Source: Phascolarctobacterium sp. (GTDB lineage Bacteria > Bacillota > Negativicutes > Acidaminococcales > Acidaminococcaceae). Taken from it: a stretch of 64,000 nt of DNA. The notes below the pieces were generated by a model. That model made no database searches. It saw nothing but the letters and a program-made list of their open reading frames with translations, and was not told the DNA's origin. Position numbers and translations under genes: made by a program. The stretch lies in the NCBI GenBank assembly GCA_034117325.1, contig JAXEPX010000009.1, positions 3,208-67,207 of the forward strand. The letters are read 5' to 3'. Of the stretch, positions 25,632 to 34,597 are shown piece by piece (within the stretch, counting starts at the first letter, position 1; every line of letters starts with the position of its first letter).

Positions 25632-26513
25632 TCAAGCGCTTTGCTGCTTGTATGGCAAATTTAAAATTACGATGGAGCCGAAAATCAGCAGCATGCCTAA
25701 TGCCTTCGTCAGCGTCATGGGCTCGGCGAAAAAGAGCATGCCCACACCCGCTGCTACGAAGGGCTCAATCGTCGCGAGGATGGAGGCCTGCCCTGGCTCC
25801 ACCTGCTCCAGCCCCAGGGTATAGAGCAGATAAGGAATAACGGCGCAGATGAGGCCCAGACCGAGCGCACCGCCGATGGTAGCGAGGTTAAGCTGCGCTA
25901 GGCTAGCAGCGTCAAAGCCTGCCATGGGCACAGCTGCCAGCAAGGCAATATAAAAGGTATAGGCGGTAATCGTGAGCGAGCTGTATTTTTGCACTGCATA
26001 TTTACCAAAAATGCTGTACAAAGCGTAGCCCAGACCACTACCGAGACCGTAGAGCAGACCACTAAAGGTGAGGCTCAGACCGCCGTCGAGAGCGCCCGTG
26101 ACGCAGGCACAGCCACCGAAGGTACACACGAGGGCGATGCCTTTCTTCACTGTGAAGTGCTCGCCGAAGAGCACGAGGCTCATCAGCATGACGAAAATGG
26201 GCGCCGTGTAAAGCAGAAGCGCCGCTACGGCGAGGCTGGAAGCCTGAATGCAATTGAAATAGCAAAAATTAAAAAAGACGAGACTGCAAATGCCCGTGCC
26301 GACAAACATCCAGAGGTCGCGCAGGGCAATTTTTAATTTTTCGATGCCTTGCCAGAGCAGTACGAGGGTAATGCAGCTGGCAGAGGCAATGGCCCTGAGG
26401 GCCACAATCTGCATGGAGCTGAAGCCCTGGGCTGCAATGCTTTTGACGAAAATGCCGATCAGGCCCCAGAGGACAGCGGCAGCGATAATGTAAAGGTAGG
26501 AGCGTGTTTTCAT
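25632..26513 (-). CDS. EamA/DMT-family transporter
   Basis: Ten TM segments in two EamA repeats; LLYTAPIFV, ASILATIEP. Confidence 0.9.
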   Translation of the reverse strand: MKTRSYLYIIAAAVLWGLIGIFVKSIAAQGFSSMQIVALRAIASASCITLVLLWQGIEKLKIALRDLWMFVGTGICSLVFFNFCYFNCIQASSLAVAALLLYTAPIFVMLMSLVLFGEHFTVKKGIALVCTFGGCACVTGALDGGLSLTFSGLLYGLGSGLGYALYSIFGKYAVQKYSSLTITAYTFYIALLAAVPMAGFDAASLAQLNLATIGGALGLGLICAVIPYLLYTLGLEQVEPGQASILATIEPFVAAGVGMLFFAEPMTLTKALGMLLIFGSIVILNLPYKQQSA

Positions 26514-27388
26514 GACTGTGCCTCGCTGTTGCTTTCGTTAGTGTGCTCCTGCGTCGGGGCTGCGGGTTGAGCATCAGTCTGAGTGTGGCGCTCTTTTTTG
26601 CGTCCCCAGAAGGCGCGGAACTTCGCAACCATGGTCTTGTCATTGTCCTTGAGCTTCGCGGGCCACAGCTCCTGCGTCTCGCTGCAGCGCATGGCTGCGG
26701 CGAGATGGTCGTAGACCTCGGGATAACGCTCGTTAAGCTCCGCAATATGCTCCTTGATATCCTGGCGCATGGTGTGACCATCGTAGGGGCAGGGGTTTTT
26801 AATTGGCTTAAGATCAAGCTTCGCTACCAGCTCGCGGATTTCGGACTCGCGGTAGTAGAGCAGGGGGCGTAGTACGGTGATGCCGCTACGGGAAAGCGGT
26901 GTTACGGGGAGAAAGGTGCGCAGCTGGCCGCTGGTCATGAGGTTCATGAAGAAGGTTTCCACGGCGTCGTCATTGTGGTGGGCGAGGGCCACCTTGTTAA
27001 AGCCCAGCTCCACGGCACGACGGTTCATGGCTGCGCGGCGAAAATAGGCGCAGGTAAAGCAGGGGCTGCCGCCCTTTTTGGCATGGGCCGCCATTACGTC
27101 CACATCATCGCTGTAATGTGTTAGTCCGTAGTGGGCGCAGAAGGCCTCGAGCTGCTGCTTGGGGAAATTGTTGGCGAACATGCCGTTCATGGTGTAGCAG
27201 GCGAGGTCGAAGGGGATGGGGGAGAATTTTTTGATTTCGGCTAGCATGGCAGTCAAGAGCATGCTGTCTTTGCCGCCGCTGAGGCCGATGAGAATGCGGT
27301 CCCCGGGGGCGAGCATATCGAATTCAATTAGTGCGCGCCACAGCTTACTGAGGTCGTCGGCGGGCACAAAGGGGATATTTTTAGGCAT
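26510..27388 (-). CDS. ttcA: tRNA 2-thiocytidine synthetase TtcA-family protein
   Basis: PP-loop SGGKDS, PCFTC, ALAHHNDD, LRPL, NPCPYDG. Confidence 0.85.
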   Translation of the reverse strand: MPKNIPFVPADDLSKLWRALIEFDMLAPGDRILIGLSGGKDSMLLTAMLAEIKKFSPIPFDLACYTMNGMFANNFPKQQLEAFCAHYGLTHYSDDVDVMAAHAKKGGSPCFTCAYFRRAAMNRRAVELGFNKVALAHHNDDAVETFFMNLMTSGQLRTFLPVTPLSRSGITVLRPLLYYRESEIRELVAKLDLKPIKNPCPYDGHTMRQDIKEHIAELNERYPEVYDHLAAAMRCSETQELWPAKLKDNDKTMVAKFRAFWGRKKERHTQTDAQPAAPTQEHTNESNSEAQS

Positions 27389-27533
27389 GGTGGGGCTCCT
27401 TGTAGATGGTAAAAATATGTTTCTTTTTTCGATTAACTATGCTATAATATTCGTGGTGCTACTGTAACGGTAGGTGGTTGCCCTCTGATAAGGAGGGCTG
27501 AGCAGCCCTCTAAAACGAAGGAGGGTGGTAGCT

Positions 27534-27623
27534 ATGAGCTTTTCTGAAGTAATAGATTTATTGAGACTATTAGTCGAAGTATCTTCTTTAGTAGTTTTGT
27601 TAGCGATAAATGCAAAAAAATAA
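27534..27623 (+). CDS. Type I toxin-like hydrophobic peptide, 29 aa MSFSEVIDLLRLLVEVSSLVVLLAINAKK (absent from ORF track)
   Basis: RBS AAGGAGGG; single TM helix with C-terminal KK; extended -10 TGCTATAAT at 27440-27448; 5'/3' UTR long-range pairing. Confidence 0.8.
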   Translation: MSFSEVIDLLRLLVEVSSLVVLLAINAKK

Positions 27624-27704
27624 CCGCCCAGCCTCAGAAACTAGCGGTTATTTTTTGTAACTTGTAAGTCATGAGGGCAACCGTCTATCGGTAGCACCTT
27701 TGCT
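27614..27704 (-). ncRNA. Cis-encoded antisense antitoxin RNA (~90 nt)
   Basis: Minus-strand promoter TTGCAG(27739-34)-17-TATAAT(27716-11); terminator AAAAAATAACCGC...GCGGTTATTTTTT at 27614-27656. Confidence 0.72.
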
Positions 27705-27716
27705 ATAATCATTATA

Positions 27717-27749
27717 CAGCTTGCAGAATAAATCTGCAAGCTGTTTTTT
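27717..27749 (+). terminator. Terminator of the toxin mRNA, overlapping the antitoxin promoter
   Basis: CAGCTTGCAG-AATAAAT-CTGCAAGCTG plus T6. Confidence 0.7.
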
Positions 27750-27755
27750 ATATAA

Positions 27756-29923
27756 TTAGAATGCCCATTGAGCGTCGATGGCACCGCCGATACCGCGTTG
27801 CTTGCCGAGCCAACCGGTTACGTTGAAGTCCAGGCTCATGTTCTTGCCGGACTGCAGCTTGTAGCCAGCCTCGATAATTGCGCTGTGGCCCTGCAGGGAC
27901 GGAGTGGGAGACTCAATGCCGTTGATTGCAGCCTCTGCGTCGCCGCCGAATTCATACTGCCATGCCAGACCTGCGTACGCTGCACTCTTCTCGTTAATAT
28001 CGGAGGTGTAGCGGCCGCCCAGACGGATGCGGTGGGAGTTCAGAGAGTCGAAGTCCACTGCTTCGCCCGTAGCGAGAGTAGCGTCGGAGTCAGCGATATG
28101 GGTGAAGTAGTAACGGCCATAGAGGTCGAGGGAAGCCTTCTCCGTGTAGCTGATTTCCTTGCCTGCGCCGAGGGTGAGGCCGTAGTAGGTAGCACTGTCG
28201 TCGTAGCTGGTAGCTGCGGATTTGTAATCGCTCTTTACTCTGCCAGCACGCAGGCTTGCGTCATAGTGTACGCCGTTTGCGTTTTTAATCTGGCCAAAGA
28301 GTACGCCGCCGGTGGACTTAATATCGCCCTCGCCATGAACAGCGCCGACATAGGAGTCGTAGTCGCCCCTGCCATGCTCTACAGCTACGCCGTAGGTAGC
28401 ATTGCCAGCAGTCTTCGCAAAGCCCACTGCTGCGTTCCAGCCGTCCACATCCACATGGGAACCGGTCTCATAGCGGGAATTGCTGCCGCCCACTGCTACG
28501 AAAGGAGCGAACGCTGCGTCCTTATCCTCGCCTGCAGCTGCCTTAGCCTGCATCATACCGGAGCTCAGCATGAAGTCGGTCATATTGTTCACTACATAAC
28601 CTGCAACTGCGCGGGTCTCGACTACGGATTTACCGTTGTCGTTAACAGTCCCTTCGTGGATTTCTAGGTTGATAGACTTTTTATCTTCGGAGAGAGTAAG
28701 TTCAGCTTCGTAGGAAATGGTAGCGCCTTGATTGAGAGTGCGGGTTTTATTCTCTACGCTGTCAAAGCCATCAAATACACCGTCGGTATACTCATCATTA
28801 TCCAAAACATCCTCTAGATTTTCTTTGGCAATCAAAGCAATGGTCTTATTGGCTGCATTACCGCTAGTGCCTGCGAGAGTGATGTCGAATTTATTGGGAA
28901 TTTTTTCAGAAATAGATGTAGTATTATCATCTGAAATCTTTAGCATGGAGTCGCCATCAGTAAAGGGATTGGTGATAACAAAGTTTAAAGATTTTTCTGC
29001 CTCGATATCTCTAGCTTGATTGTTAAAGTTGGCAATATATAAATCGTCGCAACCATAAACGTGGTTTTTGATTATAGAGCCATTAGCGATAGCAATTTTG
29101 TTACCTGTAGCAGCACCGTTTTCAGAATAACCGCCGACAAGATTGTACCCTATCTTGGAATTTGATACGATAACTATGTTGTTATTGGCTGTTTTATCTG
29201 TTTCTTTAGAATAACCACCAAAAACTGAATCATCTGTTTTGGAGTCAATTATTTTAACAATGTTGCCGTTAGCGTTGCCCTTGTAAGAGATGCCGCATTT
29301 AATGTTGTATACAGTAGCGTTAGTAATGGTAACGGAGTTGCCATTAGCATCGCCCGTCCCCGCGGCATAGCCGCCATAAACCGTTTTTTCAACCTTAGCG
29401 CCATTAGTGATAGTAACAGAGTTGTCATTAGCATCGCCAGAGCCTTCAGCATAGCCGCCATAGACCGAATTAGTTACCTTTGAATTATTTATTTCCACAC
29501 TGTTACTGATAACATTACCAGCATCCACAGAACGTGCTCCCGAAACATAGTTGATTTCACTGCCGTTAGAAATAACAACATGGTTATTGGTAGCATCTCC
29601 TTTTATAACAAAGATACCATTAGTATAAGCAAGCTTAGAATTATTAATGATAACTTTGTAATTAGAGAGTTTGTCATTAGGGTCAGATGGTTTCCAGTAA
29701 GCAACCATGCCATAATCTTCATTTCCATCAATAGTGATGGTGTCTGCACTAATTGTTTTATTTGCATCAGGAATACCAGATGTTTCAGCTACGCCAGCCG
29801 CTTGCACCACGCCCGGTAGCACCACTGCAGATGAAAAAATACCAGCGAAAAATAGTTTAGTTATTTGCCCCCCCCCAATTTTCTTTGTGCTTGTTTTGCT
29901 TTTAATTTGCTTAAGAATGTCAT
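27756..29923 (-). pseudogene. Autotransporter (type Va) adhesin, frameshifted at a poly-G tract in the signal-peptide region (phase OFF)
   Basis: RBS AAGGAGG plus ATG 29923 runs into TAA after G9. G10 gives MTFLSKLKAKQAQRKLGGGQITKLFFAGIFSSAVVLPGVVQAA in frame with the 689-aa ORF. Beta-barrel ends ...IDAQWAF. Confidence 0.85.
29868..29876 (-). repeat. G9 homopolymer (candidate slipped-strand switch)
   Basis: Nine consecutive C on the + strand. Confidence 0.9.
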
Positions 29924-30146
29924 AAATATAACCTCCTTGAAGTAATTTCGACCTAGCAGCGCAGCGTTTGCCCTAGCCTCGTAGCGCGCCACTAGACTCA
30001 GGATATACCTTCGTTGCTTATAATATAGCATAAAGCGCACTTCTACACCCCACCCCAACGGCTGATTTTGGGTAGGAAGGAGGAAATTTTTTAGGAAAAA
30101 GCACTGCGTTAGAGTGAAAATTAAAATTTTGCTACGAAAGCTCTTG

Positions 30147-30172
30147 AAAGGCTCCCCTTGCAAGGGGAGGCT
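30147..30172. repeat. Truncated family-3 REP-like hairpin
   Basis: AAAGGCTCCCCTTGCAAGGGGAGG, nearly identical to 49178-49200. Confidence 0.7.
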
Positions 30173-30237
30173 AACTTTCTAGCTGATTTTGTGGTATAAT
30201 AAAATAGCGCAAAAATAGATGGAGGTTACTTAACAAG

Positions 30238-34597
<4,360 letters not shown>

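What the first reader, a model, noticed from the sequence alone, without database searches (positions are those of the whole stretch)
27440..27749. Unannotated complete type I toxin-antitoxin locus
All parts are visible: extended -10 (27440-48), RBS, a 29-aa TM peptide ending in KK, and a terminator (27717-49). The 5' UTR 27468-85 pairs with the 3' region 27673-90 over 18 bp using three G-U wobbles, and 27455-62 pairs with 27691-98. The wobbles pair only on the toxin strand, as expected for an RNA helix. A convergent TTGCAG-17-TATAAT promoter drives a ~90-nt antisense RNA covering that 3' strand. This matches the architecture of Firmicutes type I systems with holin-like toxins; the exact family is unassigned. 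It sits beside the switchable autotransporter, so it may stabilise an accessory block.
Basis: partly seen in the sequence, partly recalled or inferred. Interest (0 to 1): 0.68.

Follow-up and report, generated by a model that had tools for sequence, protein, structure and literature searches.

The report
bsrG-like type I toxin-antitoxin locus
A 300-base gap in a pig-gut Phascolarctobacterium genome holds a small toxin gene and an opposing small RNA, and that RNA belongs to a conserved, uncatalogued family also carried by gut phages.

Summary
The + strand encodes a predicted 296-nt mRNA (27455-27750). Its 5' end pairs with its 3' region (helix P1), its ribosome-binding site sits in a hairpin, and it carries a 29-codon ORF and a terminator. 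The - strand encodes a ~92-nt small RNA (27706-27614) with its own promoter and terminator.

Relatives turned up in nine viral contigs, one GenBank phage and four metagenome contigs. A covariance model built without the window finds the window's small RNA at 65.5 bits (E 5e-12). P1 is kept in six loci with compensatory changes and two invariant G-U pairs. The layout matches Bacillus subtilis bsrG/SR4. Rfam's BsrG model aligns end to end but scores 22.9 bits, below its 55-bit cut-off.

Two related loci encode Pfam Hol_Tox toxins. The window's own peptide matches no family and has charged residues inside its hydrophobic stretch.

No RNA data were available, so expression and toxicity are untested. 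Linkage to the autotransporter is not supported: one of eight homologue loci has the RNA nearby.

Verdict: a real, probably functional type I toxin-antitoxin module. It represents a new RNA-defined family of a known kind.

The parts
27440..27448 (+). toxin promoter, extended -10 (TGCTATAAT); weak -35
   Evidence: Read from the sequence. Related loci have a promoter at the same place (L089 TTGCAA-17-TATAAT, L092 TTGCAA-17-TATAGT).
27455..27750 (+). predicted toxin mRNA, 296 nt
   Evidence: Start inferred from the -10, end from the terminator. Folds at -115.8 kcal/mol, z -7.7. Rfam BsrG aligns over 27470-27731.
27455..27489 (+). 5' arm of long-range helix P1
   Evidence: Covariation across 6 loci.
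27505..27526 (+). hairpin SL1 that sequesters the Shine-Dalgarno sequence (GGAGGGT, 27520-27526)
   Evidence: Seven pairs in the minimum-energy fold. The five central SD bases (GAGGG, 27521-27525) have an unpaired probability of 0.01-0.03. A hairpin covering the SD is predicted in all six related mRNAs.
27534..27623 (+). toxin ORF, 29 aa, MSFSEVIDLLRLLVEVSSLVVLLAINAKK
   Evidence: Its position relative to the SD hairpin and to the small-RNA terminator is the same as in related loci.
27614..27657 (-). terminator of the antisense RNA. Its U-run is encoded by the toxin's Lys-Lys-stop codons.
   Evidence: Hairpin energy -18.3 kcal/mol on the - strand, -14.1 on the + strand. Conserved with compensatory changes.
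27668..27698 (+). 3' arm of helix P1, complementary to the 5' domain of the antisense RNA
   Evidence: 27679-27702 is identical in L089. No substitutions are listed across about 27675-27710 in the metagenome contigs.
27614..27706 (-). antitoxin small RNA gene, about 92 nt (5' hairpin, linker, terminator)
   Evidence: A model built without the window scores it 65.5 bits, E 5e-12, over the full model length.
27711..27739 (-). promoter of the antisense RNA: TTGCAG, 17 nt, TATAAT
   Evidence: Read from the sequence. A TTGnnn -35, a 16-17 nt spacer and a TATAAT-like -10 lie at the same distance in every aligned family member and in the metagenome variants.
27716..27750 (+). terminator of the toxin mRNA
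   Evidence: Metagenome variants keep the stem with a different loop.

Best explanation
The locus is a type I toxin-antitoxin module built like Bacillus subtilis bsrG/SR4.

Toxin side. The + strand gives a ~296-nt mRNA. Its first 35 nt pair with nt 214-244 (helix P1), and its ribosome-binding site is locked in a hairpin, so little of the 29-residue peptide is made.

Antitoxin side. The - strand gives a ~92-nt small RNA from its own promoter. It is fully complementary to the mRNA from the last three codons through the 3' arm of P1.

How the two interact. The 5' domain of the small RNA is a near copy of the mRNA's own 5' arm, but it has A where the arm has G at two conserved wobble positions. 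The small-RNA duplex is therefore about 20 kcal/mol stronger than P1. It should displace the 5' arm and form a long duplex that marks the mRNA for double-strand-specific cleavage.

Shown here: the parts, their conservation, the covariation in P1, and the predicted energies.

Inferred by analogy with bsrG/SR4: transcription of both RNAs, toxicity of the peptide, and RNase III-type decay.
For: - Parts are present and non-random.
- The small RNA is a full-length family member in a leave-one-out test (65.5 bits, E 5e-12).
- Family members occur in nine viral contigs, a GenBank phage and metagenome contigs. Each aligned member has a -35/-10 promoter and a terminator on the small-RNA strand.
- P1 across six loci: 94.8% of cells paired. 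Five pairs changed on both sides (1 of 500 shuffles reach this). Covariation score 0.213 against 0.138 for shuffles (0 of 500 reach it). Two G-U pairs are invariant.
- All six related mRNAs are predicted to form P1 and a hairpin covering the SD.
- Energies: P1 arms -45.5 kcal/mol, small RNA on the same arm -65.0 kcal/mol.
- Rfam BsrG aligns over model positions 1-259, with P1, the SD hairpin and the AUG in register, in the window (22.9 bits, E 0.0013) and in L089 (22.6 bits).
- Published bsrG structure: 296 nt, P1 formed by nt 1-35 with nt 232-262, SD in SL1, terminator just after P1. SR4 pairs with the 3' half of P1 (PMC3834814).
- Related loci encode Pfam Hol_Tox toxins: L089 26.6 bits and L021 34.6 bits, cut-off 23.3.
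Against: - No transcript evidence. No RNA run holds the locus, and the one metatranscriptome found has no contig over it.
- The peptide has no detectable homologue in Pfam, NCBIfam, PHROGs or 1.84 billion representative proteins.
- The peptide carries D8, R11 and E15, so membrane insertion and toxicity are less certain than for the related toxins.
- Both -35 boxes are weak, and the consensus scan found no promoter.
- The small-RNA terminator hairpin is followed by six T on the + strand too. Some toxin transcripts may stop at about 27660 and never form P1.
- Folding with the small-RNA target blocked leaves SD pairing unchanged. A bsrG-style translational switch is therefore not supported here.
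Confidence: 0.75

Rival explanations
1. The conserved - strand small RNA is the functional unit: a phage-type regulatory or immunity RNA that acts in trans. The window's ORF is a decayed remnant that is no longer toxic.
For: - Small-RNA copies occur without an intact toxin ORF (L099, L100, and the second copy in L094).
- L105 has the ORF but lacks the 5' arm.
- L022 has lost the toxin ORF but keeps the antisense part.
- The window peptide is atypically charged and has no homologues.
- The core of the RNA is invariant across loci with unrelated toxins.
Against: - In the window the promoter, SD, start codon, ORF, P1 and terminator are all intact.
- P1 carries a paired change on both arms relative to the family, which keeps the helix in register. 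That is hard to explain if the mRNA were dead.
- L092 encodes a similarly charged peptide with the same E-x-I-D positions inside an intact scaffold.
Confidence: 0.15
2. The locus is an inert relic of phage or mobile DNA that is not expressed in this host.
For: - The block lies in an insertion hotspot between the PP-loop ATPase gene and pcrA.
- Relatives are mostly on viral contigs.
- There is no expression evidence.
Against: - The locus is 100% identical over 368 nt in six independent pig-gut contigs that span it; two shorter contigs are identical over the part they hold.
- No element is disrupted.
- Absence from RNA runs carries little weight, because only one metatranscriptome with sparse contigs was available.
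Confidence: 0.07
3. The inverted repeats and hairpins are only the terminators of flanking genes, or a chance or transposon-type inverted repeat. The small ORF is meaningless.
For: - The region lies between two genes.
- Both strands fold well: z -7.7 on + and -8.7 on -.
Against: - The whole unit recurs in unrelated genomic contexts with the same order of parts.
- The helix covaries.
- There is no second copy in the 64-kb window, as a multicopy repeat would give.
- The PP-loop ATPase gene is transcribed away from the locus. The 27716-27744 hairpin has no T-run on the - strand, so it is not the autotransporter's terminator.
Confidence: 0.02

Closest known systems
bsrG/SR4 of Bacillus subtilis prophage SPbeta (BsrE-G-H / as-BsrE-G-H group; Rfam RF01412)
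   Same: - The toxin mRNA and the antitoxin RNA are convergent and overlap at their 3' ends.
- The mRNA is about 296 nt, and its first ~35 nt pair with a 3' segment in a long helix P1.
- The SD sits in the first stem-loop.
- A terminator follows P1.
- The antitoxin pairs with the 3' half of P1 (PMC3834814).
- Relatives are phage-borne.
   Different: - Sequence similarity is only 22.9 bits against a 55-bit cut-off.
- The small RNA is about 92 nt rather than 183 nt, and it does not cover the toxin's terminator.
- The SD is already in a 7-pair hairpin, and folding predicts no further change on binding.
- The window peptide is not a Hol_Tox member.
- The host is a diderm Negativicute.
txpA/ratA of the B. 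subtilis skin element (TxpA/RatA family; Pfam Hol_Tox PF16935)
   Same: - 3'-overlapping antisense organisation (PMC8594479).
- Related loci L089 and L021 encode peptides above the Hol_Tox cut-off.
   Different: - No Rfam antitoxin family matched the - strand at E <= 1.
- The window peptide gives no Hol_Tox hit.
- These toxins are 22-32 aa, while TxpA is longer (my own knowledge).
hok/sok of plasmid R1
   Same: Long-range pairing of the 5' and 3' ends of the toxin mRNA keeps it translationally silent (general knowledge; cited in PMC8594479).
   Different: - Sok binds the 5' leader, not the 3' end.
- hok needs 3' processing and a leader ORF.
- The sequence family and host range are unrelated.
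par (fst/RNAII) of Enterococcus faecalis pAD1
   Same: The genes are convergent and share a bidirectional terminator. The toxin is small and hydrophobic (PMC3834814 introduction).
   Different: In par, direct repeats make the 5' ends of the two RNAs complementary. Here, inverted repeats make the 5' ends alike, and pairing is at the toxin's 3' region.

Membership tests
Type I toxin-antitoxin system (generic) | Small ORF with a ribosome-binding site that encodes a short hydrophobic peptide | tested here: met
   29 aa, GRAVY 1.22, SD GGAGGG 8-9 nt upstream. Atypical in having R11 and E15 inside the hydrophobic stretch.
Type I toxin-antitoxin system (generic) | An antisense RNA gene complementary to the toxin mRNA, with its own promoter and terminator | tested here: met
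   The promoter and terminator are present and conserved across the family.
Type I toxin-antitoxin system (generic) | Both RNAs are transcribed | tested here: inconclusive
   No RNA run holds the locus. One metatranscriptome has no contig over it, which does not show absence.
Type I toxin-antitoxin system (generic) | The peptide is toxic and the RNA neutralises it | not testable with these tools
   Needs expression experiments.
BsrG RNA (Rfam RF01412) | Score at or above the curated gathering cut-off (55 bits) | tested here: not met
   22.9 bits, E 0.0013 in a 331-nt search. The alignment is end to end. Nothing in the window reaches any Rfam gathering score.
BsrG/SR4-type architecture | P1 helix between the 5' end and a 3' segment, SD in the first stem-loop, terminator after P1, and an antitoxin that pairs with the 3' half of P1 | tested here: met
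   Predicted fold, covariation, complementarity by sequence. Reference structure from PMC3834814.
Hol_Tox (Pfam PF16935; TxpA/BsrG-type toxins) | The peptide scores above the Pfam cut-off (23.3 bits) | tested here: not met
   The window peptide gives no hit even at E <= 10. Related loci do: L089 26.6 bits and L021 34.6 bits.
New small-RNA family defined here (core GGUGCUACCGAUAGACGGUU, model R2) | Full-length match to a covariance model built from the other members only | tested here: met
   Window 27706-27614, - strand, 65.5 bits, E 5e-12, model positions 1-94 of 94.
New small-RNA family defined here | A toxin mRNA 5' arm that mimics the 5' domain of the small RNA and pairs with the 3' arm through two conserved G-U pairs | tested here: met
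   G-U at both positions in 6 of 6 loci, the window included.

The most novel reading that the evidence does not exclude
The family's antitoxin RNAs may be interchangeable. Their 5' domain and the matching 3' arm of the toxin mRNAs are almost invariant across loci that encode unrelated toxins. Predicted heterologous duplexes (-41 to -63 kcal/mol) mostly beat the intramolecular helix P1 (-37 to -46.5 kcal/mol).

Chromosomal and orphan copies could then neutralise the toxins of incoming phages. Equally, phage copies could neutralise host toxins. That would make a shared anti-addiction or superinfection network among gut Firmicutes and their phages, unlike the insulated paralogues seen in known type I families.
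Probability: 0.25. Interest if true: 0.75.

Novelty: new variant of a known kind. Interest (0 to 1): 0.55.

Why it matters
[quoted passage not shown] Their peptides are too short for gene callers and their RNAs diverge fast.

This locus led to an RNA-defined family that no Rfam model reaches at its curated cut-off. In one metagenome its core reaches about 150 times the depth of this organism. It is carried by phages next to recombinase and terminase genes. It pairs one nearly invariant antitoxin scaffold with at least three unrelated kinds of toxin peptide.

That gives three things:
- a usable search model for annotating such loci in gut Firmicutes, phages and Negativicutes, for which the paper search returned no relevant report of a type I system;
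- a natural experiment in swapping toxins on a fixed regulatory RNA chassis;
- a testable question about cross-talk between antitoxins of host and phage.

For the window itself, it marks the gap between the PP-loop ATPase gene and pcrA as an insertion hotspot.

Tried and rejected
1. Peptide homology searches found nothing. These were tblastn against plasmids and phages, pattern scans of viral, genome and metagenome contigs, and phmmer against 1.84 billion representatives.

2. Synteny. 80 PP-loop ATPase gene neighbourhoods in relatives do not contain this locus. They did reveal the L021 locus and the insertion hotspot.

3. RNA evidence. Three run searches found nothing over the locus, and laying one metatranscriptome on it gave no contig there.

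4. My own idea of a three-way CCCUC/GAGGG switch, in which small-RNA binding would close the SD, was rejected. The SD is paired with or without the target blocked. The effect on the AUG is inconsistent across members.

5. The Rfam hit to ncr1015 on the - strand (24.5 bits, E 0.2) was rejected. It is not significant, and ncr1015 is an unrelated Bacillus sRNA.

6. A transposon-like inverted-repeat element was rejected. There is no second copy in the window, and the helix covaries.

7. Linkage with the autotransporter is not supported. Only L105 of eight homologue loci has a family RNA within 3 kb.

8. BLASTP of the window peptide against the L092 peptide gave no alignment. The shared E5/I7/D8 positions are only a lead.

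Full report
OBSERVATION

- Toxin promoter: an extended -10, TGCTATAAT, at 27440-27448.
- Ribosome-binding site: GGAGGGTG at 27520-27527.
- ORF: 29 codons, 27534-27623, encoding MSFSEVIDLLRLLVEVSSLVVLLAINAKK.
- Inner helix: 18 bp between 27468-27485 and 27673-27690. Its three wobbles would all be mismatches on the other strand.
- Outer helix: a perfect 8 bp between 27455-27462 and 27691-27698.
- Toxin terminator: stem 27716-27744 plus a T-run.
- Antisense promoter on the - strand: TTGCAG, 17 nt, TATAAT (27739-27711).

The predicted 296-nt + strand RNA folds at -115.8 kcal/mol, against -75.5 +/- 5.3 for shuffles (z -7.7), with the long helix in the minimum-energy structure. The - strand also folds well (z -8.7), so the z-score alone does not pick the strand.

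Two corrections:
- The consensus scan flags neither promoter, because both -35 boxes are weak.
- The peptide is hydrophobic (GRAVY 1.22), but R11 and E15 interrupt the hydrophobic stretch.

SETTING

The organism is a Phascolarctobacterium species (Negativicutes) from pig gut.
- The flanking PP-loop ATPase (ttcA-like, 26510-27388, - strand) is at most 90% identical to proteins of uncultured Phascolarctobacterium genomes.
- The locus DNA is present in about 20 pig-gut and related metagenome runs.

In most related genomes this ATPase gene lies back to back with pcrA/uvrD (window 30238-32499; Pfam), with only about 200-280 bp between them. The window has 2.85 kb there: this locus plus the autotransporter-like gene.

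The same gap holds other inserts elsewhere:
- an ATPase gene in L023;
- in L021, a different small toxin locus whose peptide MTVFEVLSLMISFATLVVLILSFRK is a Pfam Hol_Tox member (34.6 bits, cut-off 23.3). It has the same layout: 5'-3' helix, SD hairpin, and a convergent TTGACT-17-TATAAT promoter for a ~92-nt antisense RNA.

HOW RELATIVES WERE FOUND

Peptide searches failed. I then laid metagenome contigs on the locus. Many other contigs matched only 27608-27727 and then diverged. No substitutions are listed across about 27675-27710, and depth there reaches about 1980, against 13 for this organism.

Every variant kept a -35/-10 promoter on the - strand at the same distance.

Scanning with the core sequence gave three metagenome contigs, nine viral contigs and a GenBank phage from human faeces. 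A further member, L105, lies 1.7 kb from an autotransporter homologue.

THE FAMILY

On the - strand each aligned member has:
- a TTGnnn -35, a 16-17 nt spacer and a TATAAT-like -10;
- the transcript start ...AAGGUGCUACCGAUAGACGGUUAGCC, which forms a 5' hairpin;
- a variable linker;
- a terminator AAUAACCGC...GCGGUUAUUUUU, with compensatory changes.

A covariance model built without the window finds window 27706-27614 (- strand) at 65.5 bits, E 5e-12, over the full model length, and nothing else significant in the 64 kb.

On the + strand, six distinct complete loci have a promoter, a 5' arm, an SD hairpin, a 22-32 codon ORF that ends at or just before the A-run of the small-RNA terminator, and the 3' arm. 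All six are predicted to form P1 and to sequester the SD.

Counting pairs of P1 on these six loci gives:
- 94.8% of cells paired;
- five pairs changed on both sides (1 of 500 shuffles reach this);
- covariation score 0.213 against 0.138 for shuffles (0 of 500 reach it);
- two G-U pairs invariant in all six loci.

The window differs from the others by one nucleotide fewer on each arm, which keeps the helix in register.

TOXINS

The peptides on this common RNA scaffold fall into at least three kinds:
- Hol_Tox-like. L089 is MVSFSDLFQFCILIVAIIGLVYKLSHKKK (26.6 bits). L095, MTIYDFLTVVFLVAICVVAIKS, looks similar but gives no Pfam hit.
- A C-F-x-x-G-Y/F type (L094, L101, L105).
- A more charged type: L092 MEIVEHIDTILEWISKILVIAVTIRNFHKEK and the window peptide. 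These two share M1, E5, I7, D8, N26 and K29 without gaps.

That last resemblance is not statistically supported. The window peptide matches nothing in Pfam, NCBIfam, PHROGs or 1.84 billion representative proteins.

The C-terminal Lys codons double as the template of the small RNA's U-run. This may explain why several of these toxins end in lysines (reading).

MECHANISM

Shown by sequence and prediction:
- The small RNA is perfectly complementary to mRNA nt 160-250, that is the last codons, the hairpin 27614-27657 and the 3' arm of P1.
- Its 5' domain equals the mRNA's own 5' arm, except for A instead of G at the two conserved wobble positions and for lacking the 5-nt bulge.
- The small-RNA duplex on the arm is -65 kcal/mol, against -45.5 for P1. 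The same gap of about 20 kcal/mol appears in all members.

Inferred: the small RNA displaces the 5' arm and forms a ~90-bp duplex. The duplex is cut by a double-strand-specific RNase, as shown for SR4 and RNase III on bsrG (PMC3834814).

The SD sits in a 7-pair hairpin, and the five central SD bases (GAGGG) are 0.01-0.03 unpaired, whether or not the target is blocked. Basal translation should therefore be low. I found no consistent support for an extra SR4-like translational switch.

Uncertainty: the hairpin at 27614-27657 is followed by six T on the + strand as well. It is weaker there (-14.1 against -18.3 kcal/mol), but some toxin transcripts may end near 27660.

COMPARISON WITH KNOWN SYSTEMS

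The published bsrG mRNA is 296 nt. Nt 1-35 pair with nt 232-262 in P1, the SD is in SL1, and the terminator follows P1. [quoted passage not shown] The window's predicted RNA is 296 nt, with nt 1-35 paired to nt 214-244.

Rfam's BsrG model aligns over its whole length with P1, the SD hairpin and the AUG in register, both in the window (22.9 bits, E 0.0013) and in L089 (22.6 bits). The curated cut-off is 55 bits, so membership is not met. No Rfam family reaches its threshold anywhere in the window.

T1TAdb describes the 3'-overlap organisation as typical of the TxpA/RatA and BsrE-G-H families of Gram-positive bacteria (PMC8594479).

So the locus works like bsrG/SR4, but it is a separate family at the sequence level. 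I found no paper describing it, and none that reports a type I system in Negativicutes. I could not query T1TAdb itself.

RIVALS

- The small RNA may be the only functional part, with the window's ORF a remnant. Orphan copies exist (L099, L100, the second copy in L094; L022 lost its ORF), and the window peptide is atypical. Against this, every mRNA element is intact and P1 carries a compensated change.
- An inert relic is possible but unlikely. The locus is identical in every independent contig that holds it, six of them over the full 368 nt.
- Chance, or terminators of the flanking genes, is excluded by the comparative data.

AUTOTRANSPORTER LINK

Homologues of the neighbouring protein are annotated as autotransporters of Phascolarctobacterium. 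Seven of eight homologue loci lack the family RNA within 3 kb. The idea that the module stabilises this block remains speculation.

LIMITS

There are no transcript data and no toxicity data. The family alignment has only six complete and about four partial distinct members. Model E-values are rough. The hosts of the viral contigs are unknown.

Noticed in passing
window 29868-29876 (G9 on the - strand) and ATG at 29923-29921: The autotransporter-like gene has a good SD and ATG upstream of a run of nine G. With nine G, the start (MTFLSKLKAKQAQRKLGGGK, then a stop) is out of frame with the main ORF, which continues with a signal-peptide-like stretch. This looks like a phase-variable gene caught in the OFF state. 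The ORF itself gives no Pfam hit, but its homologues are annotated as autotransporters.
   Followed up: partly
window 27389-30237; L013, L021, L022, L023: The gap between the PP-loop ATPase gene and pcrA is an insertion hotspot in Phascolarctobacterium. It is 200-280 bp in most genomes. It holds a Hol_Tox toxin-antitoxin locus in L021, a 432-aa ATPase gene in L023, and the toxin-antitoxin locus plus autotransporter in the window.
   Followed up: partly
L022 3540-3790, compared with L021 3570-3840: L022 keeps the promoter and the antisense/terminator part of the L021 locus. The toxin ORF is cleanly missing, and a short segment (CCTTAACTAAAAC-TATGATAT) is duplicated around an unrelated insert. 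The toxin was lost and the antitoxin side retained.
   Followed up: no
L094 10938-11206; L099 3307-3450; L100 1571-1705: Small-RNA copies occur without an intact toxin ORF. In L094 a second copy follows a complete locus in tandem. L094 and L099 lie beside serine recombinase genes, and L095/L097 beside HNH and terminase genes.
   Followed up: partly
window 27389-27450, - strand: The promoter upstream of the PP-loop ATPase gene in several relatives (TTGAGC, 17 nt, TGCTAGAAT; seen in L013, L021, L022 and L049) is absent here. Only 51 nt separate the toxin's -10 from that gene's ATG. The gene may therefore be transcribed from a divergent promoter that overlaps the toxin promoter.
   Followed up: no
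window 27711-27758, - strand: The hairpin 27716-27744 has no T-run on the - strand. Autotransporter transcripts may read through the small-RNA gene and stop at the 27614-27657 terminator, so that they carry the antitoxin sequence in their 3' UTR.
   Followed up: no
metagenome runs X15, X18, X19, X20 over window 27678-27726: A variant has the same 3' arm and the same terminator stem but a different loop (…CAGCTTGCAG CTTCCTT CTGCAAGC…). Its depth is broadly similar to this organism's (3.3-8.1 against 3-12.9), so it may be a second copy in the same genome or a co-occurring strain.
   Followed up: no
L105 570-830: This family member encodes MLTVDTFVGILSFGVACFGLGFALGSLHSKK and has the window-type 3' arm (GAGGGCAACC). 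It has no 5' arm or obvious promoter, and it lies 1.7 kb upstream of an autotransporter homologue.
   Followed up: partly
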